Source: a virus. From it: a DNA stretch of 64,000 nt. The DNA is taken from IMG/VR virus record IMGVR_UViG_3300029286_000018, positions 1-64,000 of that record; one strand, 5' to 3'. Positions within the stretch are counted from its first letter, which is position 1, and every line of letters starts with the position of its first letter. Both the position numbers and the translations under genes were made by a program. The notes beneath the pieces were generated by a model. It was given only the letters and a program-made list of their open reading frames with translations. It had not been told where the DNA came from and did not search any database. Shown here piece by piece: positions 24,027 through 45,481 of the stretch.

Positions 24027-24743
24027 ATGTTTAACTTAAATAAGTGGGTCAAATCCTGGTTTTCTGGAAGCGATATTACTAAAACTGCTTCTCATCACAA
24101 TGTTGGCTTAGAGAATTCCCGTAAGGATCAAGGCACATATGCTGAAGAAGATCCGATGATTGTTGAAAAAAACTTCGAGCGTAAGGATAAAGAAGAGTCA
24201 AAAGCTATAATTGAAGCACGTATGAGCAAGGAGAGTAATTCTGATCATCAGATTGCAGAAGCTCGTATGGACAAAGAGCTTGAATATTCTGTGCGCAAAA
24301 ACGATGATTTCCGCGAGGAAGTTCCTCGTATCTCTGTTGCTACTGAAAAGCATGATCAGGCATATCGTGAAGCATACGCCAAGGCAGAAAAAGAGCTTAC
24401 AAAGCAACACGACTTGTTTGAAAAATATATGGGTAAAGGCGGCAAAAAAGTGCCCGCCAATGTGCCTGCGTCTGCAAATGGTTTAGTAACAAATCCAGAA
24501 AGATTCCAGAATTTTGATGGCGTTCCTGGAGAAGATGTTCAGAAAAATTTAAAAAATATTAGTGAACGCTCTGCAGTAAAACCAATGCATACCGTTGGAG
24601 ATTTAGACTCTATTAAAAAGCTTGATGCTGCTGCATATTATGTTGCATTTAAGGCTGCTTCATCAGGTCGTGAAATGAATGAAGAAGAGACTAACGTAAT
24701 TCAATCTATCATTCAGAAAAAGCGCAAAATACTGCAATCATAA
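24027..24743 (+). CDS. Hypothetical protein, putative internal head protein
   Basis: Start MFNLNKW right after terL stop; KTAS/KAAS motifs; repeated I.EARM. Confidence 0.6.
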   Translation: MFNLNKWVKSWFSGSDITKTASHHNVGLENSRKDQGTYAEEDPMIVEKNFERKDKEESKAIIEARMSKESNSDHQIAEARMDKELEYSVRKNDDFREEVPRISVATEKHDQAYREAYAKAEKELTKQHDLFEKYMGKGGKKVPANVPASANGLVTNPERFQNFDGVPGEDVQKNLKNISERSAVKPMHTVGDLDSIKKLDAAAYYVAFKAASSGREMNEEETNVIQSIIQKKRKILQS

Positions 24744-25177
24744 TGATCAAAATTGCTAGACGCGGTACAGGTTGGCCAGCAGCATTTGAAAATCCTCTCG
24801 ACAGAGGGGATCCTTATAGGCGTTATATACCTCCTAATAGCGGAGAGTCTCCCAAACTTACTATGCTTGGCAATCAGGGTATTGGCCTAGAACCGCCTGA
24901 TGCTTCTGGTTCGATTGGCGGAGACAGTACTCTCGATCATATTTTACCTTCGGACTACGTGCATCCTTGGGCTGACCAAGATCCCGACCATCCATTTAAT
25001 TCCGTATCTGACCGTGACGATGGAGTTTTACCGTATGGTGAGTCTGGTCAGGAATTAAATTTTACTACAGACGACAATCCTCTTTCTAGGCGTAGACGTG
25101 TTTTTTCATTGATGTCTGACGACAAAGATAGAAAGCCAGGTCAATTGACGGGCGATCTTTCTAAGAAAAGGATATAA
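24743..25177 (+). CDS. Hypothetical protein, putative head protein
   Basis: TAATG coupling; starts MIKIAR. Confidence 0.6.
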   Translation: MIKIARRGTGWPAAFENPLDRGDPYRRYIPPNSGESPKLTMLGNQGIGLEPPDASGSIGGDSTLDHILPSDYVHPWADQDPDHPFNSVSDRDDGVLPYGESGQELNFTTDDNPLSRRRRVFSLMSDDKDRKPGQLTGDLSKKRI

Positions 25178-25179
25178 TC

Positions 25180-27089: not shown

Positions 27090-27295
27090 TACAGTTGTAT
27101 TATAAATACAAAAATGAGAGAGATCGCTCTTCTTGTATGGATTTTTTAAAGCATAGTGGTTTTTGGAATGATATTGATATTGATATTTCAAGGTCTGTTT
27201 CTCATAGATTAACAATATCTATGGAGGCAGACGGTGCTGACGATTTTAGTATAAGGGCAAAATATAAAGGCTTTAAATTTCATGAAGTCGATTAA
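27086..27295 (+). CDS. Small hypothetical protein
   Basis: ATGA-coupled ORF. Confidence 0.5.
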   Translation: MIQLYYKYKNERDRSSCMDFLKHSGFWNDIDIDISRSVSHRLTISMEADGADDFSIRAKYKGFKFHEVD

Positions 27296-28136
27296 AGACA
27301 GCAAGAAAATTTTTGTAGAGTTAGCAAAGACTCCTTATAAACAGAGCCAAGGGCTTATGTTTAGAAAAGAACTTCAACCTGATTCTGGTATGTTGTTTGT
27401 TTTTGATGATCCAAAACCATTAAGCTTTTGGGGAATGAATACTTTTATCCCTCTTGATATTGCTTTCATTGATGAGCATGGAATTATAAAAGATTTAAAA
27501 AGAATTAAGCAGCATGATTTAACAAGCGTAAAATCAAGTTGTCCTTGCAAGTTTGCTCTTGAAGTTTCTGATGGATGGTTTAAGGAAAATGGATTCGTAG
27601 TAGGTGATTTCATGGAATCTTTGCTTAAAGATTCTGATGGTCATATTATGCTTATAAAAAATAAACTTAGTCAAAAAACTGCACAAGTTGTTCCTGATGA
27701 AGAGTTAGAAGATGTTGAGCCAGAAGTTGTCAGTCCAGAAAAAGAAGAAGAACCAATTCTGGAAAAAGAAAAACCTGAAGCTACACCTACTCCAGTCGCC
27801 CCTGAAGAAGTAGCTCCAGTCGCTGCACCTGAATTAGAAGAACCTGGTATATCTGTCCCAAAATTTGATAGCATTTTTGACGCATTGAGGTGGTCTATGG
27901 CTAATCTGCAAGTTATGAGAGTTACCTATAAAACAGTAAAAGGTCATGTCGTTACTAAGGACATTGAGCCTCATAAAGTATTTTTCTCTAGATCTAGCAA
28001 GAGACAGGTTTTAAAAGCATATGATGAAACGGCAGACCATGCCAGTCAATATATTATTATGAATATTGTTTCATATGGTTTTCCTGGAAGGAATTTTGCT
28101 CCTAGAAGCATATTATTATCACGGAGACTTATATGA
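27282..28136 (+). CDS. DUF192 domain + acidic linker + WYL-like domain protein
   Basis: ELA.TP....GLMFR..L....GMLFVF, FW..NT.IPLDIAF, ALEV (DUF192); C-terminal VTY....G.....IEP.......L.AYD (WYL-like). Confidence 0.7.
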   Translation: MKSIKDSKKIFVELAKTPYKQSQGLMFRKELQPDSGMLFVFDDPKPLSFWGMNTFIPLDIAFIDEHGIIKDLKRIKQHDLTSVKSSCPCKFALEVSDGWFKENGFVVGDFMESLLKDSDGHIMLIKNKLSQKTAQVVPDEELEDVEPEVVSPEKEEEPILEKEKPEATPTPVAPEEVAPVAAPELEEPGISVPKFDSIFDALRWSMANLQVMRVTYKTVKGHVVTKDIEPHKVFFSRSSKRQVLKAYDETADHASQYIIMNIVSYGFPGRNFAPRSILLSRRLI

Positions 28137-28735
28137 TAGAATTAATTAAAGAAATTATTTTAACAGCACAAAGCTTAGAGGTTAAGGGTCTAAGTAAGTA
28201 TGCAGATAAACTAGATTCTGCTGCAGAGTCTTTGACTTTGGTCAAGCAGGCTCAATACGATGGCATTCAAGGCTATTGGATTCGCAATGGGCGTTGTTTT
28301 GATAATTGCTATAGAGAAAAACGCACCAATCAAGCTAAGAAAAGCGCTCAAGAGGTATGGACTGAATGTCACAGTGAGTGGCTTGATTCTCTTATGAAAA
28401 ACAGTTCTGACTGGGATAAGTATGCTTCAGACTCTTCTGGAGAAATGCGAAAAGTGGCATCTGTAAAAACAGCTCAAGTTTCTGATGAAGTTATGAATAG
28501 TGAAATTATGGAAAAAGTTACTAATGGCATTTCTATTTCTGATGCTGTTCCAATGACTGTGGCAGAGCGCATGTTTAGCGTTCCCTGGAAATTGGCTCAA
28601 GTTAGCAATGATGTGCTTGATATTGCGCGTGAAGTTTCCGACAAGGATCCAGCAGTGTCTGAACGTCTTTACGGGTTTGCGGATAGAATTAGGCAAGAAA
28701 GTCTTAATAATTATAAAGACTGCCTGATATCATAA
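28133..28735 (+). CDS. Hypothetical protein, putative head protein
   Basis: Five KxA[SQ] motifs (KQAQ, KYAS, KVAS, KTAQ, KLAQ). Confidence 0.6.
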   Translation: MIELIKEIILTAQSLEVKGLSKYADKLDSAAESLTLVKQAQYDGIQGYWIRNGRCFDNCYREKRTNQAKKSAQEVWTECHSEWLDSLMKNSSDWDKYASDSSGEMRKVASVKTAQVSDEVMNSEIMEKVTNGISISDAVPMTVAERMFSVPWKLAQVSNDVLDIAREVSDKDPAVSERLYGFADRIRQESLNNYKDCLIS

Positions 28736-28768: not shown

Positions 28769-28786
28769 ATTACGGAGGTATTAAAA

Positions 28787-29482
28787 ATGCAATTCTTTTC
28801 TAACAAAATTTATGTGAACGGTTCTAACAAGTCCTTTCAGGACATCATCAACGATGTGAAAGGCACAGGTATGGTCAAAGAAGCATCCAAGAAGATGCCA
28901 GCTGAGCTTATAGAGAATTTTAAGTCAGACAAGTCTGACAAGTCTGGCAAGTCAGGTGTTTCTGGCAAGTCAGGTGTTTCTGGCAAGTCTGGCAAGTCAG
29001 GCGTTTCTGGCAAGTCAGGTAAGTCAGAGCTAACTTCTGCTCAAAAGAAGCTTCCTCCTGCATTGCAGAAGGCAATAATGAACAAGAAGAAGGCAGATTC
29101 AGAATCTAGTCTTAAGATCGCTTCTATTGAAAAGGTTAACGATAATGAAGTTCTTTTAACCTTGGCTCAATGCAAGCCAATGTCTGGCAAGGTTGAATCA
29201 GACGTTGTTATCGATAGCGGTGATTTTGAAGAGTCTGACATGTCTGGTCACTCAGGCAAGTCAGGCAAGTCAGGTCATTCTGGAATGCATTCTGGAATGC
29301 ACAAGGAAGAGTGCGGTAGTAATATGGTGATGTCTGATTATTCTGCCAAGTCTGCTGGCGCAGAGCCAAAGTTTGTCAAAATTGCTAATCTAACAGACAA
29401 GCAAAAGGGACATTTCCGTAAGTATTGGGGAGATGTATGGCCGAAGGAATTTATTGACGCAATCTTATCCACACAGAACTGA
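28787..29482 (+). CDS. Low-complexity putative internal head protein
   Basis: GGAGG RBS; SGK/SGV/SGH tripeptide runs; KEAS, KIAS, KIAN motifs. Confidence 0.65.
   Translation: MQFFSNKIYVNGSNKSFQDIINDVKGTGMVKEASKKMPAELIENFKSDKSDKSGKSGVSGKSGVSGKSGKSGVSGKSGKSELTSAQKKLPPALQKAIMNKKKADSESSLKIASIEKVNDNEVLLTLAQCKPMSGKVESDVVIDSGDFEESDMSGHSGKSGKSGHSGMHSGMHKEECGSNMVMSDYSAKSAGAEPKFVKIANLTDKQKGHFRKYWGDVWPKEFIDAILSTQN
28924..29027 (+). repeat. 9-bp coding tandem repeat (SDK/SGK/SGV)
   Basis: TCTGGCAAG / TCAGGTGTT units; a second run at ~29243-29302. Confidence 0.8.
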
Positions 29483-29491: not shown

Positions 29492-30103
29492 ATGGCAATT
29501 CTGCCTGTAGGAATTAGAAAACAAATGCAAACACAGATGTTCAGGACGGCGCAGCAATCTGCGCCTCCTGAACCATCTTCTGTTTATATGCAAACCGGAG
29601 CATCTGCTCCAATGAGTTCGTCTCAGAATCTAAATGACGATTCTTCTAGCAAATCTGGAGACATTGACATTCGAGAGTTTGTCACTAATGTTCTTGTACA
29701 AGAGTTAGGAGTCCCTCAAAGAATTCTTGATAAAAAACTCGATAATTTAGTTAGTTATTCAATTGATTCAAACGGCGAAGTGAAAGGCTTTTTTATAATT
29801 CCAGTTCATACTGGTCAAAAGAAAGTCACACTCAGTGAAGCTCAAAAAATTGTTTCTTCTTTCTGCTCACAGTTTAATGTTGATTGTGATATTGAACACG
29901 GTAAAAATTTCAAAGTTAATTTTAAGAGTGTCCCCAAGTCAAAGCCAGCAGATATGAGTGGAGATGATGAGGGTAGCTTGCAGTTCGTGCCAGATGAAAA
30001 ATCTGGTACTAAAAAGGTTGCTTCAAGTATTTTTGAAGAACAGTTCGAAATGCGCAAGAATATGCTTGCAGATACGCTCAAAAGACTAGGATACACCAAA
30101 TGA
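29492..30103 (+). CDS. Hypothetical protein, putative head protein
   Basis: GAGG RBS; RTAQ and KVAS motifs flank a globular core. Confidence 0.6.
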   Translation: MAILPVGIRKQMQTQMFRTAQQSAPPEPSSVYMQTGASAPMSSSQNLNDDSSSKSGDIDIREFVTNVLVQELGVPQRILDKKLDNLVSYSIDSNGEVKGFFIIPVHTGQKKVTLSEAQKIVSSFCSQFNVDCDIEHGKNFKVNFKSVPKSKPADMSGDDEGSLQFVPDEKSGTKKVASSIFEEQFEMRKNMLADTLKRLGYTK

Positions 30104-30744
30104 TTTTTAAGAATAAAGACTTCAGTATATCTTCTTTGTTTGGAGAAAAGCCTCAACCGAAAGAGTCAAAACCAGTTGACCCAGCTATTTTGGAGGCTTT
30201 TTTTAGAAAGCAAACTAGCAAGTCTGCTGGTGGGGATCAAGGTGGATTAATATCCAAAAGTATATTGAGATCATCTTCATCGCAGGACTTAAATGTTCCT
30301 GGAGAAGCTTTTGTTGGTAAAAGTTCTGCTCGTTCAATTTTTTCTCCACAGTCTACCCCAATTGAAAAATCTGTTGATCGTTCAGTTTCTCGTATCTCTG
30401 AGTTTCTTCCTGATATTAAGCAAGAAGTCCCATCAGATGTTGCTGATGACTTGATGAAGTTCAAGGGTAATTTTTCTGAAGCTTCAAAAGCTGCAGGTTC
30501 TCACGGTTCTGTGCGCACAGATCGAATAAGTATGTTTGACGAGGGTGCTTTTGATAGATTGCAGAAACCAGAGACAGAGAAGAAAGCAGCAAAGGTTGTT
30601 GAAGAAAAGAAAATTTCTAAGGCGATGAGAGCGACAGATATTGCTAACTCAATGTGGTCAAAACTTTCTGATGACAATTCAGCAAAAGGCAAGATGTCGA
30701 GAGAGCGTGCAATCGATAAATTATTTGGAGACAATAATGCCTAA
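30100..30744 (+). CDS. Hypothetical protein
   Basis: ATGA-coupled intact ORF, Ser/Lys-rich. Confidence 0.6.
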   Translation: MIFKNKDFSISSLFGEKPQPKESKPVDPAILEAFFRKQTSKSAGGDQGGLISKSILRSSSSQDLNVPGEAFVGKSSARSIFSPQSTPIEKSVDRSVSRISEFLPDIKQEVPSDVADDLMKFKGNFSEASKAAGSHGSVRTDRISMFDEGAFDRLQKPETEKKAAKVVEEKKISKAMRATDIANSMWSKLSDDNSAKGKMSRERAIDKLFGDNNA

Positions 30745-31795
30745 ATTTAATCTTTTTAAGTTGGCACAAGCACAGCCTGGCCAGTTTAATATGAGCCAGC
30801 CAGTGATTCAAGGAGCCATGGAATCTGTTACTCCAGAGGGAACTACTGAGGAGTCGCTAGAAGATGGTGCTGGTATGGGCATGGAAGGTGATACTCAGCT
30901 GTTGATGAATCCCGGTCAGTCTGATGTTGACTCAGAAATAGAGACTTTGTCAGTTCCACTATTTGAAAACCATGTGCAGATGTATGAAAAGTTAAAATCT
31001 ATGTCTACCGGAGATACAAAATCTTCGATGAACGCTGCATGGAATAATTATTTTGCACCTACTATCGGTGAAACTGAAATTGGCGATGATTTTAAATCTG
31101 GTTTGGGACAATTTTTTGACACTGATCCTGATTCTGAAGATGCAGTTGATATTGCTAATCGCCTTTATGACATGTACGCCAAGATTCATCCTTCCCATAA
31201 GGGTTCAGAGGCTGAGCAAGAGACAATTAATGAAGAGTTAGATGTAGCTACTGCTAGTACATTAGATGTCATCAAAATGGCTCAAAAAATGGCTAAGTCA
31301 CAAGTGCAAAAAATGGCAACAGGATCTTTTAATCTTAAGAAGATTGCTCAGCATAAGGGACTTGACTCTTCTAATGTTATTACTGGTCCATCTCAGACAT
31401 CTTTAAGCCCATTCACTCGTGACATTCAGGGCGGTATGCACTTAATCGAGCAGAACAAAGGGTTTGGACTTAAGATTGATGACATTCTTGACATTAACTT
31501 TGAAGCAATTTGGCGTGGTAATATTATGGATAAATATAATCAGCCATATCGTGACGAACAAGGTAATTATGTTGGTGGTTATATAAATAGAAGATTTGAA
31601 GTTGATCGTAATATTCCAGTTGGTAATAATTTGCAGCTTCTTCCAGGAACCCGTCATCGTCCATGGATGCCAGAATATTCTATTCTTGAGTCTCGCATGG
31701 AGTCTGCTAGAGGAAATAAGGATAAGTTAATTAATCCTTTTACTTTTGCAAAAGTCTCTATTGGCCCATTTAACTTAAAAAAAAAGAGCAAGTAA
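30737..31795 (+). CDS. Putative head protein upstream of portal; ends in slippery A-run
   Basis: GGAG RBS before ATG 30737 (MPKFNLFKLAQ); FNLKKIAQ internal; ends TTA AAA AAA AAG AGC AAG TAA. Confidence 0.7.
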   Translation: MPKFNLFKLAQAQPGQFNMSQPVIQGAMESVTPEGTTEESLEDGAGMGMEGDTQLLMNPGQSDVDSEIETLSVPLFENHVQMYEKLKSMSTGDTKSSMNAAWNNYFAPTIGETEIGDDFKSGLGQFFDTDPDSEDAVDIANRLYDMYAKIHPSHKGSEAEQETINEELDVATASTLDVIKMAQKMAKSQVQKMATGSFNLKKIAQHKGLDSSNVITGPSQTSLSPFTRDIQGGMHLIEQNKGFGLKIDDILDINFEAIWRGNIMDKYNQPYRDEQGNYVGGYINRRFEVDRNIPVGNNLQLLPGTRHRPWMPEYSILESRMESARGNKDKLINPFTFAKVSIGPFNLKKKSK

Positions 31796-34319: not shown

Positions 34320-34733
34320 ATGATAAAAATAGCTGGTAAGCGTATAAAAGATCGCCATATTAATTGGCAAGAGCACTACTCGGAAAGAACAGAACCTTTG
34401 CGTGATCGTTATTGGTCTGAATTAGGCACTGGTTCTTATCGTAGATGGGAAGGTCATGACTATACAACGAATAGTGATTATTACGTTGTTTGCAGTCCTG
34501 CTCAAACTAAATACGGAGAAAAATCTTACTTTGCTGGTATTAAAAAATTACCACCCGCTTCGGTTCGTGAAACTACAAAAGTGTATTCTCCATATGGTAA
34601 GTACTTTAGTAGCATGGCTGCTGCTTTGAGTTTTTTAAAAGACAAGTATGGTGTACCTTGGCCAAAAGATCAAGTGAATTACATGTCAGCGCAATTGCAA
34701 AATATTGAAATCCCTAGATTCGTGAAGGCATAA
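34320..34733 (+). CDS. Hypothetical protein, putative head protein
   Basis: Starts MIKIAG; lies between portal and protease. Confidence 0.6.
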   Translation: MIKIAGKRIKDRHINWQEHYSERTEPLRDRYWSELGTGSYRRWEGHDYTTNSDYYVVCSPAQTKYGEKSYFAGIKKLPPASVRETTKVYSPYGKYFSSMAAALSFLKDKYGVPWPKDQVNYMSAQLQNIEIPRFVKA

Positions 34734-37700: not shown

Positions 37701-40541
37701 CAGCTTGCTGGTGGACAGATGCCAGCTAATTTAAATCCTGCTGGCATGGGAATGGGCATGCAGCTTCCAGGTGGAGCAGCTCCCGCTGGTGGTCCAGGCA
37801 TTGAAGCTCTCACTGGTGAACTACCAATGGATGCTGGCGGTGCTGGTGCTGATCCTCTTGCTGGAGGAGATATGGGCATGGAAGACGCTGAATCTAAGCC
37901 AAAGCCACCAGGTGCAGTTTGCATTGTTTGCGGAGGAAATGACGTTGATGTCCAGAGTGGCAAATCGAAGTGCAACGGCCCAGGCTGCGGCATGAACTAC
38001 ACCATCAAGATTGTCCCAGATGCATCCTTGCTTGACAAGATTACAGACGGAGATGTTGATCAAGAAGATGTTACAGCTGGTCCAGAATCCCCAGAGAAGG
38101 GCCTTGGCGGCTATGGTCCAATGGGCGCTCTTGACGCTGGCGCTGCAGGAATGCCAGCTCCAGCAGGAATGCCAGCAGGCGGAATGGCAGTTGCTGCATC
38201 TGCCAAGATCAGTGCTGATACCATGAAGAAGTTTGCATCTCGCCATGCTTTTGGATCAATCAGTCCAATCACTGGCGCAAGTAACACTATTCGTCTTGAC
38301 CAGGAACACTGGCAGTGCCTAGATAGTGGTCAGATCTACCGTGTTCGTTTGGCTGCAAAGCAAAATGATTCAAAGCACGTTTATGCTCAATGGGAATGGG
38401 TTCCATTAGTAAAGAAGGCTTCTTGCGCTCCATGTCAGCGTCGTAAGAACGCGATTGTCAGCGCTCTTTCTTCAGTTGGAATTTCTGAGAGCAAGTTTGA
38501 CGGTATGTCTATGACTGACAAGGCAAATGCTTTGAATTCAATTAATGAGCGTGGATTGCTCGGCACAGTCAAGGAGGCTTCCTCCGATGGTGTGCGCAGC
38601 TTCTTTAAGCAGGCATTCACTGTTCACGGTGAATTCCCAATGGAAATGTGCATACACAAGCTTGCCAATCGCTATGGAGATAACGCTCTTGCTTTGAGCG
38701 GTCCATGCGAAGGTAAGAATCTTGCTGAGTGCGTATGCAGTTCTTTGTCCGATGAGAAGGTTTACACTACCGACTTGGCTCGCAAAGTAGCTTCTGCATG
38801 GTCTGAGCGTGATGGAATGTATGAATGCGTCGAAGACTTCGTGCGCGATGGCCTTTCATTGAATAAGTCTGCTCAGGCATGTGAAGATCTGAAGACCAAA
38901 TACATCAGTGCAGAGGAAATGTTTGCAGAAACTATTTCTAATGATGCAGTTGTTAAGGCTGCTCAGCTTGAAAATGAGGAGCCTATCGAAGAAGAAGATC
39001 CATTTGACTCATCAGATGAAATGTCTGATTCTTCTGAGGACGCTGATGTCGATTTTGAAGACATGTCAGACGATTCTGAAGGTATGGAAGATGACGATTC
39101 TGAAATGGACGGCGACGATGATTCGGGTATGCCATCTGGATACCACGATGAATCTGAAGGTGGAGATGAAGACGAAAGCGAAGGCGATGAAGATTTTGAA
39201 GTTGAGATCAGCCTAGACAGTGGTTCTGCTGATGAAATTGAACACGGTCTTTCTCAGGTCCCTGAAGAAGAGGGTGGAGAAGAGATGGATTTGGATATGG
39301 AGATGTCAGAAGAAGAGATGGACGGCGAGTCCGATCATTCAGACGAGTCTGGTCATTCAGGTCATTCAGCTCATGAGGAGGGCAGCATGGAAGAATCAGG
39401 TATGGTTAGCGAGGCAGACCTTTATAAGGAGTCTCCAAAGCAGGCAAATGAACTTGAAAAGTTTGAAAAAGAAGCTCATTCATTGCGTCGTGGTCGCATA
39501 GTCGGCGTCAACAAGCTAAACATTGATGTTGACAGCATCCGTGCAGCCCTCAATAAGAAGGCTGGCAAGGTTGAGCAGACCAGTGCCCAAGATACCGTGA
39601 AGGGTATTGCTAACGGCAAGCCTCACTCAGAGAGCACTCAGGAAGGTTTCGATGCAGAGACTCCAGACGTTCCGACACAGAACGGAAAAGTCCTGAGTAA
39701 TGAGCATGGCGATGGATTTGATGCTGATATGCCAGAGATCCCATCCGGTAAGGGTAAGTTCCCAAATGAGACCAATGAAGGCGAAATGCAGGACACTGTA
39801 AGTGGTGGAACAGCTGGTCAGGGTTCAAACCATACTGGTAAATACCGCAAGGCTTCCAATATGTTTGACCAGGCACTTGCCAAACTCGCCAAGGACATGA
39901 ACCTTGAAATCGGAGCAGCTCAAAATGATCCAGACATCGCACCAATTGCTGATGGTAAGGCTCATCCAGATGCTGCAACTGAGGAAGGCTTCAGCGCAGA
40001 TTCGCCAGACGTTCCAGACAATGGTGGAAAGCCACTGAGCTCTGAGCACGGCGAAGGATTCAAGGTTGATGGTCCATCAATCCCAGCTGGTGACGGCAAG
40101 ATGGGGCATGAATCCAATGAAGGTGAAAAACAAAATGGAATCACTGGTGGTGGGCTCGGTCAGGGCAATCACACCCAGTATAAGTCTAAGAAGGCCAATA
40201 GTGCCAATAAAGAGGTTGCATTAAAGCTTGCAGCAAAAATGGTTGAAGGAGGCTTAATTAAGGCCGACCAGATGCCAGGCAAGATTTCGGAGTTGCAGAG
40301 ATACGAGGTATCTCAGCTCCGTGACCTCGAGAAGGCGATGTTTAATCGCCCGAGTGCTATGAAGGGCCTGAAGATTGCGTCGAGTGGGGTAGAGCAGCCA
40401 CTCGTCATCAGCGAAGCAAGCAGTCACAAAAATGCTTCGGTTGATCTAAAAGGTAAAATTGCTTCTCTGTTCCGCTTGCAACAGCAGGTCGAAGCGGCAG
40501 ATGAGAGCGAGGCTGCTAAGTTACGTAGTGCGTTTAAATGA
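34740..40541 (+). CDS. Prohead maturation protease / scaffold polyprotein (1933 aa)
   Basis: N-terminal NDNGD.F...EL...TF.G.P.FVNH, G.V, SMG, CxxC..CxH, F.E.S.V..PA resemble HK97/herpes-fold prohead proteases; followed by acidic, Gly/Pro, Cys-rich and coiled-coil segments; directly upstream of capsid genes. Confidence 0.8.
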   Translation: MDKFTITTERQIEPLNIPQHWDEINISPITKYASNDKVFEERVKGMDLGGFNIVKEVKEHPEHLFVKVFAIKKDEVNDNGDYFSEKELKKAAKTFIGVPVFVNHQNDDIEKARGKVVHAWWDDERGGIYTINMVDKVAYPRLARGIEAGYVTGSSMGCSVKYSACSVCHTRAANAKEYCSHIKERKKKNFTGEHECLYHKSANSGDEPCPVCGSEKGKKKLNKYASQQIFEHNYDVKFIEDSFVVNPACHDCLVSDIINPSALFKKVADIRETISKLGFVVESDSSFGIECSTGQCGLHKAAGKQELNELNDAMNQLERVARSMMAQKNKVSLEYVSDIIKVTADIQKISDELVEMGYAVLPSPTSEQVAYGTNVQASPVVGPSSAVQTPISAMPKPSSGAQPSAQPSLAMPPQQAAPMMKTVPGTVSPQVQDLGDDIGRVTRPNFVPVRADSAKDFIKISNSIMNRLSEIAGVLNINGEFMSENSGYKYTQGDDTIVISSDVDGEIHVAHLNQDRLLKWASIDSFDNETQSLITHNPQQAARKILSSYMNNNNSEESIISMENNNKIAQSQTNDVHEVTTESQLNSVKGLGRRQGEAPTGTTESKEQLGSGKVYFKDVNSESPTAHRGTYDSIVESTLNSKTGGYMARWGSFPEVITEAQWDDLSREVKANIPSDWTSVAKEGQLDALRSTFSWSEPTATTESQLSGKMKKKASAKDLIKVAQSAVADAMAFYGVGIEDIQKSVQFVNSDSSRKFKSKVMVALNAAPWAVNARKAYNSRLASFSKVASEVYGLEPVDAVLAAIGDSLDNNGAEDVLAAVTFVAGNKLAMQQAEDLAVERFESTVSGNSNEEDMFRQAFSELSLPEDGLIKVCMSAQDDLGMDVSGDKSFIDAVHKFAQNMVSENLGKQVEVVPVAVDVDEENGLVEATCKLASKLTDQEKQAFSKWASSAEEATKQAEVIEEVEETKFENKRASLIKELNQLEKRAQLAGGQMPANLNPAGMGMGMQLPGGAAPAGGPGIEALTGELPMDAGGAGADPLAGGDMGMEDAESKPKPPGAVCIVCGGNDVDVQSGKSKCNGPGCGMNYTIKIVPDASLLDKITDGDVDQEDVTAGPESPEKGLGGYGPMGALDAGAAGMPAPAGMPAGGMAVAASAKISADTMKKFASRHAFGSISPITGASNTIRLDQEHWQCLDSGQIYRVRLAAKQNDSKHVYAQWEWVPLVKKASCAPCQRRKNAIVSALSSVGISESKFDGMSMTDKANALNSINERGLLGTVKEASSDGVRSFFKQAFTVHGEFPMEMCIHKLANRYGDNALALSGPCEGKNLAECVCSSLSDEKVYTTDLARKVASAWSERDGMYECVEDFVRDGLSLNKSAQACEDLKTKYISAEEMFAETISNDAVVKAAQLENEEPIEEEDPFDSSDEMSDSSEDADVDFEDMSDDSEGMEDDDSEMDGDDDSGMPSGYHDESEGGDEDESEGDEDFEVEISLDSGSADEIEHGLSQVPEEEGGEEMDLDMEMSEEEMDGESDHSDESGHSGHSAHEEGSMEESGMVSEADLYKESPKQANELEKFEKEAHSLRRGRIVGVNKLNIDVDSIRAALNKKAGKVEQTSAQDTVKGIANGKPHSESTQEGFDAETPDVPTQNGKVLSNEHGDGFDADMPEIPSGKGKFPNETNEGEMQDTVSGGTAGQGSNHTGKYRKASNMFDQALAKLAKDMNLEIGAAQNDPDIAPIADGKAHPDAATEEGFSADSPDVPDNGGKPLSSEHGEGFKVDGPSIPAGDGKMGHESNEGEKQNGITGGGLGQGNHTQYKSKKANSANKEVALKLAAKMVEGGLIKADQMPGKISELQRYEVSQLRDLEKAMFNRPSAMKGLKIASSGVEQPLVISEASSHKNASVDLKGKIASLFRLQQQVEAADESEAAKLRSAFK

Positions 40542-40575: not shown

Positions 40576-41151
40576 ATGGCTTTAATAGTATCATATCACA
40601 CAATAGCAACCCAGCTTCCAACAACTTCCACAACCATTGTTGAGGGCATGGGCGTTAAGTTCTCTGCTGTATCCGGTGCAGAGTCAAAGGTGGCCCTTGC
40701 TGATGCAACTACCTTCACTTTTGGTATCGCTGGCGATAGTTCAGTTTCAACTGGTCCAAACAAGCCCTACGGTGCTTCAGTTGTAGTGAACGGCGCTGGC
40801 GGAACTCGTGGAACTAGTAACCGTGTTTCTGACTTTTTCAATGAAACAGTTGGCTCAGGTAAGATCACAGTTTATACTGGTATTGGAGAATTTTACACTG
40901 ACCAATATAACACTAGTGGTTCATATACACCAGGCGCTAAGTTGTTTACCAACAGTGTTGGTAAGTTGACCAATACTGATGGTGGCGGTAACTCAATTGG
41001 TTTCACCATGGACGGCCCACGCGCTTATCCAAGCGGTGTTCCTGGCGTTGATGACGGTGGCGTTACTGGCGCAAACACGACTATTAACGGTAGCTTGTCT
41101 TTAGGTAGCTACCTTCGTTTCTACATGAACATTTCTGGTATAGATTTATGA
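40576..41151 (+). CDS. Head decoration / minor capsid protein
   Basis: AAGGAG RBS; position before MCP; G.AGD, SGKITVY...GEF.TDQY, G.KL....GKLT pattern. Confidence 0.65.
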   Translation: MALIVSYHTIATQLPTTSTTIVEGMGVKFSAVSGAESKVALADATTFTFGIAGDSSVSTGPNKPYGASVVVNGAGGTRGTSNRVSDFFNETVGSGKITVYTGIGEFYTDQYNTSGSYTPGAKLFTNSVGKLTNTDGGGNSIGFTMDGPRAYPSGVPGVDDGGVTGANTTINGSLSLGSYLRFYMNISGIDL

Positions 41152-41222: not shown

Positions 41223-42095
41223 ATGTCACTAAATAAAGATGGTTTGACCTATGATGAGAAAGAGGCAGTAATTGCCCAAGCTCTCGCTACAGAAGAGGGC
41301 CGTACTGCTCTCGCACAGGCAATGGTGGAGCCAATCCGCCGTTCTTTGGAGTATCAAGCTGTTGGTCGTAAGTTGCTCATGGTTGACGAGCTCCCACAAG
41401 GTGCTCTTCCTCGCTATGAGCGCGACGTAGCTTCTACCGCCACTGTCATTGCTCGTCAGGGTGCAGTCCCTGACCAGATTCAGCAGGGCGAAGAAGTCCT
41501 TGTTCCAACATTCGAGATTGCTGCTCACCCAACAATCCGTTTGTCTGAAATCAAGGCTCGTCGTTTCTACATTGTTGACCGCGCCCAGATCAAGGCAAAG
41601 GAAGCCATTCAGAAGGAAGAAGATCGCAATATCTTCAACGCTCTGATTGCTGCTGCCGATACCCGTAATGATCAGGTCGTTGGCAACAGTGGTGATCTTA
41701 CTACTGATTCACTTAACGTTGCATACCGTTTGATTGAGACCCACGATCTTGTCGCAAGCAAGGTTGTTGCTCACCCACTTCAGTATGCTCGCTTCCGCGT
41801 TTTCGGCAAGACTTTCTACGATGAGGCTACAACTCGTGAAATCCTCACCACTGGTCTCTATGGTCACCTCTGGACCGCTGACATTCACGTCAGCTCCCAG
41901 CTTGACCCTCAGACCATATTGGTGTGCGCTTCTCCCGACACCGTTGGAGCCTTCCCAATCCGCCAGGACATCACTGTCCTCCCAGCGGACGATCCGAAGA
42001 AGCTTCGCCTCGGTTGGGTAATTTATGAAGAGATCGGCATCGTTGTAATGAACGATTACGCTCTCTCGAAGATTGAAGTTTACCGCACAAGCTAA
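41223..42095 (+). CDS. Major capsid protein (HK97 fold)
   Basis: GR.ALAQAM.EPIR..L.YQ.VGRKLL.VDELPQG...RY..D, P.FEIA..P.I...EI..RRF..VDRAQ, GWV.YE.IG; high-expression codon bias; AAGGA RBS. Confidence 0.88.
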   Translation: MSLNKDGLTYDEKEAVIAQALATEEGRTALAQAMVEPIRRSLEYQAVGRKLLMVDELPQGALPRYERDVASTATVIARQGAVPDQIQQGEEVLVPTFEIAAHPTIRLSEIKARRFYIVDRAQIKAKEAIQKEEDRNIFNALIAAADTRNDQVVGNSGDLTTDSLNVAYRLIETHDLVASKVVAHPLQYARFRVFGKTFYDEATTREILTTGLYGHLWTADIHVSSQLDPQTILVCASPDTVGAFPIRQDITVLPADDPKKLRLGWVIYEEIGIVVMNDYALSKIEVYRTS

Positions 42096-42216: not shown

Positions 42217-43866
42217 ATGAGTGAACGCAAGATATTTAACTTTGAATCAAAAATATTAGATAATGAAACTCTTAGTAAATTTGGATATTATCCAGAATCT
42301 ATTGGAAGATCATCTGCAAAGTTTGTAGTTGCTATATGTAGATTTTGTGGATATCAAATGGATATAAGGAAGGGCTTTTATAATAAATCTGGATCGGCTT
42401 GTCATAAAGATTGTAAGCTAAAAGAAATGAGTCTTTCTGGGTCCCCATTTTGTCTTGATAAAACAAGGGAAAAAGCAAAGGTCACAAACTTAAAAAAATG
42501 GGGTAATGAATGTCCTCAAAAAACAGAAGTGATTCGCAATAAGATAAGTGTGTCAAAAAAAGATGCAGAGTATCAAGCAAATTTTAAAGAAACCATGAGA
42601 TCAAGGCACGGTGTTGATAATCCTGCTAAGATGTCCGATCATGCAGAAAAAGTTAAGAATACTTCATTAATTAAGTATCAAAAAGAACATTTTAATTTAA
42701 ATGAATCAGTTCAAGCAAAAAGACAAAACACAAACATTGAAAAGTATGGATGTGCTTTTCCTACGCAGAATGACTCTGTAAAACAAAAGATAAAAGATTC
42801 TTGGAAACAAGTTGTTTCACAAGACGATGAGAAATATTTTATGTTTAATTTTGTTTCTAACTCTAAAGAGCTATGGAACGACATTGAGGCAGGTATGTCT
42901 TTATCTGACATATCTCAGCATTATCAAATTGATCGTATTGCCTTAAATAAAGTTCTTTTAAGTCAGCAATTTAAAAATAAATACCAAAAGATTTATTCGT
43001 ATCCAAAACATCAAAAACAAAAAGAAATATATGATTACTTAAAATCGATTGGTCTATCAGATATTGTTATGGATGATAAAGGTGTAATTGGTTTAGAACT
43101 AGATATTTATTCTCCGTCAAAAAAGATGGCAATAGAATTTAACGGTTCATATTGGCACTCAGAAGCAATCTTAGATCCTGATATTGCTAGAAAAAAACAT
43201 ATCAATAAGACAAAGATGTGTGGAAAAATTGGTGTTAGGCTAATTCATATTTTTGAAAAACAATGGGAAGAAAGAAAGGCTCAATACGAATCCTTTTTGA
43301 CATCAGCGTTTGGATTGAATCTGGTTAATCTACATGGAAGATCTTGTTCTATTGATTTTAGTCCTGAGTACTCATTTATGGAAAATTATCACATACAGGG
43401 CAAGCCTAGAGGCGTTGAATTTTGGGTAAACTTAAAGTATGATGGAGAAACGGTTGGGTCAATGTCTTTATCATCTCATCATAGACAGAATGGATCTGTA
43501 AATGAGGCTGTTTTAAGTAGAATGGCATTTAAGGCAGGGGTTACTATTCGCGGCGGAGCCTCTAGGATGCTTTCCTATGCAATAAAGTTGGCAAAAGCAA
43601 ACGGATTTGATAGTATTATTACTTGGTCAGATGAAATGATTACAAGTGGGAATGTATATCAAAAAATGGGATTTATATCAGATAAAACTTATGGTCCAGA
43701 TTATTTTTATTGGGATTTAAATAATAATCAGTATCGTTCAAAACAGTCTCAGAAAAAATCTGCAACTGGATGCCCTAAGGATAAGACAGAACGAGACTGG
43801 TGTTATGAAAATAATTTATATAGAATGTGGGACTGTGGTAAAAGACGTTGGAGGATAAAGGTTTAA
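42217..43866 (+). CDS. Hef-like free-standing endonuclease (KYG repeats + Vsr/DUF559-like nuclease + Mom-like GNAT domain)
   Basis: Repeats T...K[YW]G...P; ELDIY....AIEFNG.YWHS...H..K...C...G..LIHIFE..W; C-terminal H.QG, LSR, GGAS, SD...G.VY...GF, DCG. Confidence 0.75.
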   Translation: MSERKIFNFESKILDNETLSKFGYYPESIGRSSAKFVVAICRFCGYQMDIRKGFYNKSGSACHKDCKLKEMSLSGSPFCLDKTREKAKVTNLKKWGNECPQKTEVIRNKISVSKKDAEYQANFKETMRSRHGVDNPAKMSDHAEKVKNTSLIKYQKEHFNLNESVQAKRQNTNIEKYGCAFPTQNDSVKQKIKDSWKQVVSQDDEKYFMFNFVSNSKELWNDIEAGMSLSDISQHYQIDRIALNKVLLSQQFKNKYQKIYSYPKHQKQKEIYDYLKSIGLSDIVMDDKGVIGLELDIYSPSKKMAIEFNGSYWHSEAILDPDIARKKHINKTKMCGKIGVRLIHIFEKQWEERKAQYESFLTSAFGLNLVNLHGRSCSIDFSPEYSFMENYHIQGKPRGVEFWVNLKYDGETVGSMSLSSHHRQNGSVNEAVLSRMAFKAGVTIRGGASRMLSYAIKLAKANGFDSIITWSDEMITSGNVYQKMGFISDKTYGPDYFYWDLNNNQYRSKQSQKKSATGCPKDKTERDWCYENNLYRMWDCGKRRWRIKV

Positions 43867-43915
43867 TGTTTGTCAAGGAATGTTTTTCATAAATAAATGA
43901 GTAATATTTTATATC

Positions 43916-45481
43916 ATGAATTGGTATAAGTTCGCTGCAAAGATATCATCATCTATTTCTCCTACTGCAAGTGAAGAAGCAATATTTAAAGTAATTAGAG
44001 CTGGCCGAGACGCATACGCTCCAGGTGTGCAGCTTCGAATTGCTGGTGGTTGGGTACGTGACAGGCTGCTTGGTAGCGTTTCCGATGATATTGATATCGC
44101 GGTAAGCGGTGGAGACGGCAATGCTGTAGCTGAAGCAATTAGGCGCTATGATGTTGAAAACACTGGTGGTAAGCACACTAAAGATCCTTATGCAGTGAGC
44201 TTAGAAAAGACTCAAGCTGGTGATAAGAAAAGCAGCGCAGGTCTTCGAGTGGGTGCTATTGATATAAATGGCGTCAAAATAGAATTTGTACCAATGCGTA
44301 CTGAAGTTTATAGTCAAGGAAGTAGAATTCCAGGGATAACAGCCACTGATGACCCCAAAGAAGACGTGAAGCGTAGAGATTTGACGATTAACGCAATTTA
44401 TTACAATATTGATACAGGCAAGGTTGAGGATTATGCTGGTGGCGTGAGCGACTTGGAAAAAGGTGTTCTTCGAACTCCTGTCAACCCCGTTGAAACACTG
44501 AAGGAAGATCCCTTGCGTGCACTTCGAGCATTGCGTTTTCTTTCTCAAATGCATGGTTTTGAATTGGATGAATCTTTAGTTGAAGCACTAAAGCACCCAG
44601 AGGTTCATAAGGCATATCTTGAAAAAGTTGCCCCTGAGCGAGCCAGAAAAGAAATAGAAAAACTTGCACTTGGAAATAGGCCAGCCGAAGCTATTAGACA
44701 TTTCTTTTCCAGCGGTCTATACTTACCTGTTTTTCATCATGATAAACTTTATGGATTTAAGCCAATACATATGGACCAGAATAATCCAAAGCATCAATAC
44801 AATCTTCTTGAGCACACTGTTCACGTAGTAAAGAATTTGAACGATATGTTATTGGAGTCTGGTGTTTCCAAGAATGAAAGATTGGTTGCTGTGCTTTCTG
44901 CTATATTTCATGATTTTGGCAAAATGGATCCAGATTTAGTTCGTCCAAGCAAGTCAATGCCAGGTGCTTCTTCATATCCTGGTCATGAGAATGTATCTGC
45001 TGAATTAGCTGTTGATATATTAAAGCGTCTTGGTTTTGGATCTGAAAGAGATCTTGTAGCCAAAGTTGTTAAGGAGCATATGCGCCCTCATGGTGAAATG
45101 CATAGTCCAAAATCAATTGGCAAATTTTTACGTGATTTTGATGATCTTCCATCTGGTGACGATACAAAACCTCGTCTTTGGTGGCTAACTTTTATGCATG
45201 CTATTGCAGATTCTATGAGTAAGGGTGGCATGGACTATCATGAAGACGTGAAGGGCAAGCACGATCAAATTAAGACAATTGAGCAGTTCATAGAAGAGCG
45301 TTCCAAGATTGGTTCAAAACCATTGTTAAATGGTAAGGAAATTATGGACATTTTCCCAGACAAAAATCCTAAGACAGGCTTTATAGCAGATATGCAAAAA
45401 GCACTACTTGATGCTCAAGATTCTGGGCAAGTAAAAGATAAAGATGCTGCAAAACGGTTGCTTCAATCTTTATTCTCTTAA
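43916..45481 (+). CDS. cca: tRNA nucleotidyltransferase (CCA-adding enzyme, class II) with HD domain
   Basis: AGGWVRD.LLG..SDDIDI, R.E.Y...SR.P loop, DV.RRDLTINA, EDPLR.LRA.RF, ER...E..K, HT, HDFGK, GHE, LNG..I; poly(A) polymerase G[RK]RF signature not seen. Confidence 0.9.
   Translation: MNWYKFAAKISSSISPTASEEAIFKVIRAGRDAYAPGVQLRIAGGWVRDRLLGSVSDDIDIAVSGGDGNAVAEAIRRYDVENTGGKHTKDPYAVSLEKTQAGDKKSSAGLRVGAIDINGVKIEFVPMRTEVYSQGSRIPGITATDDPKEDVKRRDLTINAIYYNIDTGKVEDYAGGVSDLEKGVLRTPVNPVETLKEDPLRALRALRFLSQMHGFELDESLVEALKHPEVHKAYLEKVAPERARKEIEKLALGNRPAEAIRHFFSSGLYLPVFHHDKLYGFKPIHMDQNNPKHQYNLLEHTVHVVKNLNDMLLESGVSKNERLVAVLSAIFHDFGKMDPDLVRPSKSMPGASSYPGHENVSAELAVDILKRLGFGSERDLVAKVVKEHMRPHGEMHSPKSIGKFLRDFDDLPSGDDTKPRLWWLTFMHAIADSMSKGGMDYHEDVKGKHDQIKTIEQFIEERSKIGSKPLLNGKEIMDIFPDKNPKTGFIADMQKALLDAQDSGQVKDKDAAKRLLQSLFS

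What the first reader, a model, noticed from the sequence alone, without database searches (positions are those of the whole stretch)
24027..45481. A [K/R]-x-A-[S/Q/G/N] 'code' marks head-region proteins and enzymes: candidate capsid-protease processing and cargo-loading system
Seen: the motif recurs densely in proteins between terminase and capsid: KTAS/KAAS (24027), MIKIAR (24743), KIAS (25894), KTAQ (27282), KQAQ/KYAS/KVAS/KTAQ/KLAQ (28133), KEAS/KIAS/KIAN (28787), RTAQ/KVAS (29492), KLAQ/KMAQ/KIAQ (30737), RYAS/KAAQ/KVAQ/KRAS (portal), MIKIAG (34320), and more than 20 copies in the 1933-aa protease (KYAS, KIAQ, KKAS, KVAQ, KFAQ, KRAS, KRAQ, KFAS, KEAS, KIAS...). It is scarce by eye in the fibre, sugar and tail genes. 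It often sits a few residues from the N-terminus or at domain borders, sometimes after FNL-x-K. Established: T4 gp21 (I/L-x-E) and phiKZ gp175 (S/A/G-x-E) cut internal head proteins at short motifs that also end capsid-targeting propeptides. Inference: this phage uses an Ala-P1/Lys-P3 version to load and release a large set of internal proteins.
Basis: partly seen in the sequence, partly recalled or inferred. Interest (0 to 1): 0.85.

Follow-up and report, generated by a model that had tools for sequence, protein, structure and literature searches.

The report
Lys-x-Ala cutting motif in megaphage heads
A short Lys-x-Ala-Ser/Gln motif occurs about eight times more often than chance in the head-assembly proteins of this uncultured relative of Bacillus phage G, and it is most likely the cutting site of the phage's own capsid-maturation protease, though no cut has been measured.

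Summary
K-x-A-[S/Q] occurs 41 times against about 5 expected in the 17 head-module proteins (P about 1e-24). In the rest of the 94-kb contig it occurs 6 times against 11 expected. Scrambled versions of the motif are not enriched, codons at the sites vary, and the flanks are unrelated.

The enrichment recurs in 47 related viral loci, in 150 database representatives of the giant protein, and in the head module of Bacillus phage G. Key sites stay aligned across homologues only 33-40% identical, while the x residue varies freely.

The 1933-aa protein begins with a herpesvirus-assemblin/T4 gp21-fold serine protease. Conserved sites sit where herpesvirus release and maturational sites sit. I read the motif as K(P3)-x-A(P1)|S/Q/G/N, which dismantles a giant protease-scaffold polyprotein and trims 10-40-residue N-terminal propeptides from the portal and several small head proteins.

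Cargo loading is only partly supported. A shared N-terminal MFNLxK tag is suggestive, but no packaging data exist. Some cited examples fail: the fibre RNAG hits, MNWYKFA, and the CCA-enzyme RIAG.

The scan already reached the same reading on related genomes. I found no published report.

The parts
34740..40541 (+). 1933-aa protease-scaffold polyprotein with 21 K.A[SQ] and 30 [KR].A[SQGN] sites
   Evidence: Homologues of 1835-2451 aa are present in 28 related loci. 86 of the 150 best database representatives are over 1400 aa, and 78 of those are enriched more than 3-fold.
34878..35519 (+). Prohead serine protease domain (residues about 47-260) with invariant His104 and Ser155
34830..34841 (+). 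KYAS (residues 31-34): candidate N-terminal propeptide cut of the polyprotein
   Evidence: Motif present in 22 of 27 homologues. Lies in the disordered stretch 1-37.
35637..35648 (+). KAAG (residues 300-303): candidate release site behind the protease domain
   Evidence: K.AG in 26 of 27 homologues, always Gly at P1'. Lies at the edge of the pLDDT<50 stretch 287-300, between two helices.
36438..36449 (+). KIAQ (residues 567-570): conserved internal site
   Evidence: 16 of 27 homologues. Lies inside the low-confidence segment, model residues 12-105.
36873..36884 (+). KKAS (residues 712-715): conserved internal site at the end of the ITExQL repeat segment
   Evidence: 17 of 27 homologues. Lies at the border of a low-confidence segment, model residues 156-173.
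37095..37106 (+). KVAS (residues 786-789): conserved internal site
   Evidence: 22 of 27 homologues. Lies in a low-confidence loop, model residues 245-253.
37692..37703 (+). KRAQ (residues 985-988): conserved internal site before the Gly/Met/Pro-rich linker
   Evidence: [KR].AQ in 26 of 27 homologues, always Gln at P1'. Lies at the end of a helix, just before the disordered stretch at model residues 452-514.
38571..38582 (+). KEAS (residues 1278-1281): conserved internal site in the Cys-rich domain region
   Evidence: K.AS in 25 of 27 homologues. Lies in a low-confidence loop, model residues 740-743.
40455..40466 (+). KIAS (residues 1906-1909): last site, 25 residues from the C-terminus; candidate maturational site ahead of a conserved tail (LF.L...LR..FK)
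   Evidence: The last site lies a median of 35 aa from the end in 27 homologues and 41 aa in 86 representatives, and within 60 aa in 71% of the representatives.
24027..24743 (+). 238-aa head-region protein starting MFNLNK, with KTAS at residues 19-22 (24081-24092) and KAAS at 24651-24662
   Evidence: Sites conserved in 9 of 12 and 7 of 13 homologues. MFNLxK N-terminus conserved.
28133..28735 (+). 200-aa protein with six sites; KQAQ at residues 38-41 (28244-28255)
   Evidence: 6 sites vs 0.56 expected. K.AQ at this column in 33 of 36 homologues.
28787..29482 (+). 231-aa protein with SGKSG repeats; KEAS at residues 31-34 (28877-28888); KIAN near the C-terminus
   Evidence: 4 sites vs 0.66 expected. 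Conserved in 15 of 22 and 17 of 22 homologues.
29492..30103 (+). 203-aa protein; RTAQ at residues 18-21 (29543-29554); KVAS at residue 175
   Evidence: Conserved in 9 of 16 and 6 of 16 homologues.
30737..31795 (+). 352-aa protein just upstream of the portal: MPKFNLFKLAQ N-terminus (30758-30769), FNLKKIAQ at 31340-31351, and a C-terminal FNLKKKSK
   Evidence: Internal site present in 40 of 40 homologues; N-terminal site in 21 of 37. FNL.[KR] 84 vs 4.5 expected.
32008..34260 (+). Portal protein with KAAQ at residues 35-38 (32110-32121). Its C-terminal DUF559-like nuclease (residues 603-720) is preceded by KVAQ (33691-33702), and KRAS (34159-34170) lies at its C-terminal edge
   Evidence: phrog_16240 E 2.8e-42. 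DUF559 at 28.8 bits vs a 20.6 cut-off. KAAQ column conserved in 33 of 38 homologues, KVAQ in 6 of 6, KRAS in 20 of 37.
34320..34733 (+). 137-aa protein starting MIKIAG|KRIKD
   Evidence: Homologues begin M-x-FNLSKQAG-PRRIKD (L045) or carry K.AG slightly upstream in 9 of 24.
27282..28136 (+). DUF192-domain protein with KTAQ (residues 132-135) between the domain and an acidic/Pro linker
   Evidence: PF02643 E 2e-26. Site conserved in 13 of 32 homologues.
41223..42095 (+). Major capsid protein, motif-free, with no delta domain
   Evidence: phrog_2522 E 7.6e-63. 51.6% identity to phage G gp27. No site in the window or in 15 homologues.
40576..41151 (+). 191-aa protein in the position of the phage G decoration gene, motif-free
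   Evidence: No site here and none conserved in 25 homologues. Gene order matches phage G gp26-gp27.

Best explanation
K-x-A followed by S, Q, G or N is the recognition site of the phage's own capsid-maturation serine protease, cut between Ala (P1) and the next residue, with Lys at P3 and often Leu/Met at P5.

The protease is the first ~300 residues of a 1933-aa protease-scaffold polyprotein encoded between the portal and the capsid gene. The proposed sequence inside the assembled procapsid is:
1. The protease removes its own 33-residue leader.
2. It frees itself at the conserved K-x-A|G site behind the protease domain, like a herpesvirus release site.
3. It cuts the long body at many sites. 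Some are fixed at domain borders and many turn over in evolution.
4. It cuts about 25 residues from the C-terminus, like a herpesvirus maturational site that detaches the scaffold from the shell.
5. It trims 10-40-residue N-terminal propeptides from the portal and from at least five small head-region proteins. Three families of these begin with an MFNLxK tag that may act as a docking or targeting signal.

The capsid and decoration proteins carry no site and stay intact.

Shown: the enrichment, its specificity, its conservation, the protease fold, and the placement of sites in predicted linkers. Inferred: that cutting happens, the exact scissile bond, the scaffold role of the body, and any packaging of the small proteins.
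For: - Enrichment and specificity: 41 vs ~5 expected, with permuted motifs at chance. K.AS and K.AQ rank 1st and 3rd in an unbiased pattern scan. P = 1.7e-24.
- Protein-level signal with independent origins.
- Recurrence: 3.3-8.5-fold enrichment in the 46 of 47 related loci longer than 7 kb; the 6.5-kb L033 has 2 vs 1.2. 3-7-fold in all blocks of 150 representatives. K.AS is the top pattern in the phage G head module, including its protease gp19.
- Positional conservation: sites at A33, A302, A788, A987 and A1280 are kept in 22-26 of 27 homologues with x free. Joint retention in homologues under 40% identical is 0.27 vs 0.08 background, P 1e-8. K and A are conserved at 0.47 vs 0.28 background, while P2 and P4 fall below background. 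N-terminal sites are conserved in the portal and small proteins.
- Geometry: the A33 and A302 sites lie in disordered stretches. Five of six highly conserved body sites lie in or next to low-confidence segments.
- Precedent: A-x-E at P3-P2-P1 with Ser preferred at P1' in SPN3US (PMC10052503). HCMV protease substrates cut after Asn-Ala, before Ser (PMC13486704). The release-site/maturational-site architecture of pUL26 (PMC4498786).
- The last site lies a median 35-41 aa from the C-terminus, ahead of a conserved tail.
Against: - No proteomic or biochemical evidence of any cut exists for this phage or for phage G in the papers I could read.
- Several sites lie inside confidently predicted helices or strands (for example A1351 and KYAS 221-224), so not every occurrence can be a cut site.
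- Pfam S78 models match only below their cut-offs.
- The body of the polyprotein has no recognisable scaffold or enzyme fold.
- Mycobacteriophage cluster C phages share the giant protease gene and gene order but show no clear enrichment of the motif. The specificity is therefore not a property of the whole protease family.
Confidence: 0.8

Rival explanations
1. The motif is a short linear binding or modification motif that is not cut. For example, it could dock onto the capsid interior, portal or scaffold, or be a site of Lys modification or cross-linking. It would be shared by head proteins because they must co-assemble.
For: - FNLxK occurs without the Ala-Ser part at the extreme C-terminus of the 30737 family, and at the N-terminus of the 24027 family. 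At least that element can therefore act without cleavage.
- Some K-x-A-S sites sit in well-folded elements.
Against: - The motif has the P3-x-P1 form of cleavage sites of the same protease fold (PMC10052503, PMC13486704).
- It is densest in the protease's own polypeptide.
- It sits at the release-like and maturational-like positions and in disordered linkers.
- It sits 10-40 residues from N-termini.
- The shell proteins that would need to co-assemble (capsid, decoration) lack it.
Confidence: 0.1
2. The sites are cut, but by a host protease rather than the phage protease. The model would be host Prp cutting the L27-like leader of Staphylococcus phage 80alpha capsid and scaffold proteins.
For: FNLxKxA-S resembles the L27/80alpha leader LNLQFFA-S in its N-L...A-S spacing. 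This rests on my own recollection of that sequence and was not tested. The phage G host is a Firmicute, a group that has Prp.
Against: - The contig encodes no Prp-like protein.
- It does encode a dedicated assemblin-fold protease whose own polyprotein carries the densest set of sites.
- The Phe-Phe of the Prp site is absent, and most sites lack N-L.
- Lys at P3 is the best conserved residue.
Confidence: 0.05
3. The excess is an artefact of composition, low-complexity sequence or internal sequence repeats.
For: - Head proteins are rich in Lys, Ala, Ser and Gln.
- The fibre RNAG hits are indeed repeats.
- The 28787 protein has SGKSG repeats.
Against: - Global and local shuffles give about 5 against 41 observed, and nine permutations of the same residues are at chance.
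- Flanks of the 40 sites are no more alike than random windows.
- The excess recurs in homologues with only 33-40% identity, at aligned columns.
Confidence: 0.01

Closest known systems
Herpesvirus assemblin precursor (HSV/PrV pUL26, HCMV pUL80a; MEROPS S21)
   Same: - The protease is at the N-terminus of a long assembly protein.
- A conserved site lies directly behind the protease domain, and another lies a few tens of residues from the C-terminus (PMC4498786).
- Ala sits at P1 with a small polar P1' residue (PMC13486704).
- The capsid protein itself is not cut.
   Different: - Lys rather than Val/Leu/Ile at P3.
- About 20-30 sites per polyprotein instead of 2-4.
- The body is about 1600 residues with Zn-ribbon/Cys-rich domains and repeat modules.
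- Other head proteins (the portal and small ORFs) also carry sites.
- The host is bacterial.
- A nested scaffold gene was not looked for.
T4 gp21 (I/L-x-E), phiKZ gp175 (S/A/G-x-E) and SPN3US gp245 (A-x-E) processing of head and internal proteins
   Same: - Same P3-x-P1 motif logic.
- Many head proteins lose N-terminal propeptides.
- Multiple motif copies occur within propeptides or scaffold.
- Ser is preferred at P1' in SPN3US (PMC10052503).
   Different: - P1 is Ala, not Glu, and P3 is Lys.
- The capsid protein is apparently not processed here.
- The protease is fused to a giant body.
- No proteomic proof exists.
Bacillus phage G head module (gp14 portal, gp19 protease, gp26 decoration, gp27 capsid)
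   Same: - Capsid protein 51.6% identical and protease 36% identical.
- K.AS is the top enriched pattern in its head-module proteins, with sites near both ends of the portal and of gp19.
   Different: The phage G protease is a separate 300-aa protein. The giant fusion is absent, and the sites are spread over gp4, gp7, gp11 and others.
Giant protease-led proteins of cluster C mycobacteriophages (e.g. I3 gp103, 1408 aa, annotated hypothetical)
   Same: - Homologous protease domain (34% identity).
- Same gene order: giant protease, a ~180-aa protein, the capsid protein, then an HNH endonuclease.
   Different: No clear K-x-A-[S/Q] enrichment: 9 loose sites, with no pattern standing out.

Membership tests
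Assemblin-fold capsid maturation serine proteases (MEROPS clan SH: S21, S77, S78, S80) | Characteristic protease fold | tested here: met
   [not shown]
Assemblin-fold capsid maturation serine proteases (MEROPS clan SH: S21, S77, S78, S80) | Conserved catalytic His and Ser | tested here: met
   H104 (VNHQN) and S155 (SSMG) are invariant in 27 sequences and align with the same motifs of phage G gp19. Structural equivalence to the catalytic residues of solved proteases is inferred and was not superposed residue by residue.
Assemblin-fold capsid maturation serine proteases (MEROPS clan SH: S21, S77, S78, S80) | Match to curated family models (Pfam Peptidase_S78 / S78_2) | tested here: not met
   14.6 bits vs a 21 cut-off, and 16.1 vs 24. 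The PHROG head-maturation-protease profile does match at E 1.4e-12.
Assemblin-fold capsid maturation serine proteases (MEROPS clan SH: S21, S77, S78, S80) | Proteolytic activity on head proteins | not testable with these tools
   Needs biochemistry or virion proteomics.
Herpesvirus-type protease-scaffold precursor | Release site directly after the protease domain | tested here: met
   K.AG in 26 of 27 homologues at residues 300-303, in a disordered linker. Met as a motif only; cleavage is not shown.
Herpesvirus-type protease-scaffold precursor | Maturational site near the C-terminus, ahead of a capsid-binding tail | tested here: inconclusive
   The last site is 25 aa from the end here, a median 35-41 aa elsewhere, and is followed by a conserved tail. 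Binding of the tail to the capsid protein is untested.
Herpesvirus-type protease-scaffold precursor | Body acts as an internal scaffold; nested in-frame scaffold gene | not tested
   No fold or family was found for the body. Internal starts were not examined.
T4/phiKZ-type capsid-targeting propeptides of internal head proteins | Short N-terminal propeptide ending in the protease motif | tested here: met
   Conserved sites lie 10-40 residues from the N-terminus in 24027, 28133, 28787, 29492, 30737, the portal and the giant protein. Met at sequence level only.
T4/phiKZ-type capsid-targeting propeptides of internal head proteins | Shared targeting sequence | tested here: inconclusive
   MFNLxK begins three families (24027, 30737, 34320). 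FNL.[KR] is 84 vs 4.5 expected, and 29 of those lie within the first 40 residues. The other propeptides lack it.
T4/phiKZ-type capsid-targeting propeptides of internal head proteins | Proteins present inside the virion and ejected | not testable with these tools
   No virion data for this uncultured phage. The phage G proteomics supplements are not held.
Prp/L27-type host processing (phage 80alpha) | Prp protease and an LNLQFF|A-type site | tested here: not met
   No Prp family match in the contig. The sites lack Phe-Phe. The host genome is unknown.

The most novel reading that the evidence does not exclude
The head uses a two-part, portable address system. An N-terminal (or C-terminal) FNLxK tag docks proteins to the protease-scaffold core. 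K-x-A|S/Q/G/N then releases them, and the site-specific, strictly conserved P1' residue (Gly behind the protease, Gln at 987, Ser at 1280) sets an order of cuts. On this reading the 1933-aa protein is a true polyprotein whose conserved Zn-ribbon/Cys-rich middle domains survive as functional internal or ejected proteins, rather than being mere scaffold debris.
Probability: 0.3. Interest if true: 0.75.

Novelty: new variant of a known kind. Interest (0 to 1): 0.6.

Why it matters
Capsid-maturation proteases of tailed phages with a mapped specificity mostly cut after Glu (T4, phiKZ, SPN3US).

A Lys-x-Ala|Ser rule in the phage G lineage would matter for four reasons:
- It would link phage and herpesvirus proteases not only by fold but also by P1 Ala specificity and by precursor architecture.
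- It would give a simple rule for predicting mature ends of head proteins in hundreds of uncultured megaphage genomes. There are 1303 protease relatives at E<=1e-10, many of them 1500-2700 aa.
- It would flag the ~2000-aa 'hypothetical' head genes as self-dismantling protease-scaffold polyproteins.
- It would offer a candidate tag-plus-cut-site pair for loading proteins into very large capsids.

It can be tested directly in cultivable phage G.

Tried and rejected
- Near-identical DNA in cultured phages: none.
- PDB sequence search with the protease region: nothing useful.
- Pfam on the whole giant protein and on eight segments: only sub-threshold S78 hits.
- ESM Atlas on residues 430-1000: no usable hit.
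- Foldseek with the 881-residue body model (mean pLDDT 64): no meaningful match.
- Literature: I found no statement of a K-x-A specificity or of processed head proteins for phage G or its relatives. The key 2020 phage G structure paper and the 1991 assemblin paper are not held, and the supplement tables are not held.
- A motif shared with cluster C mycobacteriophages: rejected.
- Significant depletion of the motif outside the head module: not shown (6 vs 11.2, P 0.07).
- CCA-enzyme leader as a cargo tag: no homologue in the related loci, and K-F-A-A is outside the motif class.
- A DNA-level explanation: rejected by codon diversity.

Full report
**Context.** The window is the first 64 kb of a single 94,349-bp viral contig. 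CheckV rates the contig only 23% complete. Its capsid protein is 51.6% identical to the capsid protein gp27 of the 498-kb Bacillus phage G. Several related IMG/VR contigs are 330-500 kb. The contig is therefore probably a fragment of a very large phage of the phage G lineage.

The head module reads as follows:
- large terminase, 20948-24025
- about twelve small ORFs, 24027-31795
- portal, 32008-34260, with a C-terminal DUF559-like nuclease domain
- a 137-aa ORF
- a 1933-aa protein, 34740-40541
- a 191-aa protein in the position of the phage G decoration gene
- the capsid protein, about 41223-42095
- a homing endonuclease and a CCA-adding enzyme

- Per-gene shuffles show the excess in the giant protein (30 [KR].A[SQGN] vs 5.3, z = 11), in 28133 (6 vs 0.56), in 28787 (4 vs 0.66), in the portal (6 vs 1.5) and in others.
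- The core motif is K.A[SQ]. It occurs 41 times in the head proteins, against 4.9 expected from global shuffles and 5.3 from local 30-residue shuffles. Nine permutations or shifts of the same residues are at chance. K.A[GN] (11 vs 4.4) and R.A[SQ] (5 vs 2.3) are weaker.
- In a blind scan of all gapped three-residue patterns, K.AS ranks first and K.AQ third; the pattern between them (S..SG) comes from the SGKSG repeats of 28787. L.K.A and M.K.A follow, which gives Leu/Met two residues before the Lys.
- The head module has P = 1.7e-24. The remaining 24,000 residues of the contig have 6 sites vs 11.2 expected.
- Codons at the sites use both Lys, three Ala, six Ser and two Gln codons, so the signal is in the protein.
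- The 21 flanking residues of the 40 sites are no more alike than random windows (7.0% vs 6.2%). The nine RNAG hits in the two fibre genes, by contrast, have 82% identical flanks and are simply repeats.
RIAG in the CCA enzyme sits immediately before GWVRD at the start of the tRNA-nucleotidyltransferase match, so I read it as enzyme core (inference). KIAS in 25894 is not conserved.

**Comparative evidence.**
- A portal search returned 47 related loci. K.A[SQ] is 3.3-8.5-fold enriched in 46 of them; the 6.5-kb L033 has 2 vs 1.2. Each locus long enough carries a 1835-2451-aa homologue of the giant protein, which has 7-23 sites against about 2 expected.
- A full-library search with the first 330 residues found 1303 relatives at E<=1e-10. 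Of the 150 best, 86 exceed 1400 aa, and 78 of those are enriched more than 3-fold.
- In phage G itself, K.AS is the top pattern in the head-module proteins (12 vs 2.45). Sites lie near both ends of the portal and of the separate 300-aa protease gp19.
- In an alignment of 27 giant homologues (33-74% identity), the following Ala columns keep the motif: A33 in 22, A302 in 26 (always K.AG), A788 in 22, A987 in 26 (always [KR].AQ), A1280 in 25 (always K.AS) and A1351 in 21. The x residue varies freely.
- Among the 18 homologues below 40% identity, joint retention of the three motif residues is 0.27, against 0.08 for all triplets and 0.04-0.16 for partial-motif controls (P 1e-8). Lys and Ala are kept in 47%, against a 28% background, while P2 and P4 fall below background.
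- Many other sites are not positionally fixed although the density is maintained. That is what redundant degradation sites would look like.
- In the small proteins and the portal, the conserved sites lie 10-40 residues from the N-terminus: 24027 A21 (9/12), 28133 A40 (33/36), 28787 A33 (15/22), 29492 A20 (9/16), 30737 A10 (21/37) and portal A37 (33/38). One internal site in 30737 is present in 40 of 40 homologues.
- The capsid and decoration-position proteins have no site here, and none is conserved in their homologues.

**The enzyme.**
- Residues about 47-193 match a PHROG head-maturation-protease profile (E 1.4e-12).
- An AlphaFold model built on 27 sequences is confident over residues 50-240.
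- His104 and Ser155 are invariant, and the domain is 36% identical to phage G gp19.
- Pfam S78 models match only below their cut-offs. I therefore file the domain by fold and PHROG, not by Pfam family.

**Where the sites sit.**
- The model leaves residues 1-37 and 287-300 disordered. The KYAS and KAAG sites lie in or at the edge of these stretches.
- In a model of residues 540-1420 (mean pLDDT 64), five of the six most conserved body sites fall in or within three residues of segments with pLDDT below 50: A569, A714, A788, A987 and A1280. A1351 and several non-conserved sites lie inside helices (positions converted by subtracting 539).
- The last site is 25 residues from the C-terminus here. 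The median is 35 aa in the 27 homologues and 41 aa in 86 representatives. It precedes a conserved tail of the form LF-x-L...LR..F-K/R.

**Mechanism.**
- Proteases of this fold read a P3-x-P1 motif. SPN3US gp245 cuts after A-x-E, with Ser preferred at P1', and produces N-terminal propeptides (PMC10052503). HCMV protease substrates are cut after Asn-Ala, before Ser (methods of PMC13486704).
- Herpesvirus pUL26 is a protease-scaffold fusion cut at a release site behind the protease and at a maturational site near the C-terminus, which detaches the scaffold from the capsid protein (PMC4498786).
- The herpesvirus consensus (V/L/I)-x-A|S is established knowledge that I could not re-read here.
- The layout found here is the same, with Lys at P3. 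I therefore read the motif as K(P3)-x-A(P1)|S/Q/G/N.
- I read the 1933-aa protein as a self-dismantling protease-scaffold polyprotein, and the small-protein and portal sites as propeptide removal.
- All cutting is inferred.

**Cargo loading.**
- F-N-L-x-K/R is itself strongly over-represented in the related loci (84 vs 4.5). It directly precedes x-A-[SQGN] in 50 cases.
- It begins three different protein families: 24027 (MFNLNKW...), 30737 (MPKFNLFKLAQ) and 34320. In 34320, relatives read M-x-FNLSKQAG-PRRIKD where this window has the shortened MIKIAG-KRIKD.
- It also ends the 30737 family (…FNLKKKSK) without an Ala-Ser.
- This fits a docking tag separable from the cut site, as with T4 capsid-targeting sequences. 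No evidence shows that these proteins are packaged.
- Recognisable enzymes among the motif-bearing proteins are few: DUF192 with a site behind the domain (13/32), and the portal-tethered DUF559 nuclease, preceded by KVAQ (6/6 where the linker exists) with KRAS (20/37) at its C-terminal edge.

**Rivals.**
- Composition or repeats are excluded.
- A non-cleaved binding motif remains possible, mainly for FNLxK.
- A host Prp-type protease is unlikely. The contig has no Prp, the Phe-Phe of that site is missing, and the phage protease's own chain carries the densest set of sites.
- Cluster C mycobacteriophages share the giant protease gene and gene order but not the motif. The Lys-x-Ala rule is therefore specific to the phage G-like clade.

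**Novelty.**
- I found no paper stating this specificity (see Tried and rejected).
- Follow-ups of this scan on related genomes reached the same reading (e1-5632285, e1-5894712, e1-3451888; e1-5786675). I saw these only after my own tests, and they are not independent evidence.
- The finding is a new variant of a known kind: prohead-protease site codes and protease-scaffold fusions.
- It is of moderate to good interest because phage G is cultivable and the prediction is sharp.

Noticed in passing
window 36440-36880 (giant protein residues ~570-714): There are three to five copies of a short repeat [IVT]-T-E-x-Q-[LW] (consensus PEVITEKQL). It occurs 89 times in giant homologues against 3 times in all other ORFs of the 47 loci. 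Function is unknown; the copies may be docking repeats.
   Followed up: partly
window 24027-24045, 30737-30769, 31322-31351, 31769-31792; related loci L001-L047: An F-N-L-x-K/R tag is found at N-termini, before internal K-x-A-Q sites, and at the extreme C-terminus of the 30737 family (84 vs 4.5 expected).
   Followed up: partly
whole contig (G000, 94,349 bp): CheckV completeness is only 23%, and relatives reach 330-500 kb. The contig is probably a fragment of a megaphage. Downstream of the window lie ORFs of 934, 1539, 1285, 1222 and 3279 aa with no motif excess.
   Followed up: partly
window 20948-24025: The large terminase is 1025 aa, but terminase profiles match only residues ~441-984. The N-terminal ~440 residues are unexplained, apart from weak primase-like and head-protein hits.
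   Followed up: no
window 33449-34260: The portal carries a Gly/Pro-rich tether and a C-terminal DUF559/Vsr-like nuclease domain (PF04480, 28.8 bits). This fusion is present in only some relatives.
   Followed up: partly
window 28940-29030 and 29230-29290 (28787 protein): SGKSG(V/K)SG low-complexity repeats, with a sub-threshold collagen-like hit, account for the enriched S..SG pattern.
   Followed up: no
L049 (Mycobacterium phage I3, record 45365-49591): Cluster C mycobacteriophages encode a 1408-aa 'hypothetical protein' that starts with a homologous prohead protease domain. The gene order is the same: giant protease, a ~180-aa protein, the capsid protein, then an HNH endonuclease. The gene is under-annotated.
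   Followed up: partly
P0029-P0055 and loci L028, L035, L046 etc.: Many homologues of the protease domain match in two or three separated stretches, and some portals span about 3 kb. This suggests inteins or other insertions inside the protease and portal genes.
   Followed up: no
window 1450-3801 and 6310-11325: The fibre proteins contain nine near-identical ~25-residue repeats (…GGTGGTTTIRNAGTNINGTLTV…).
   Followed up: no
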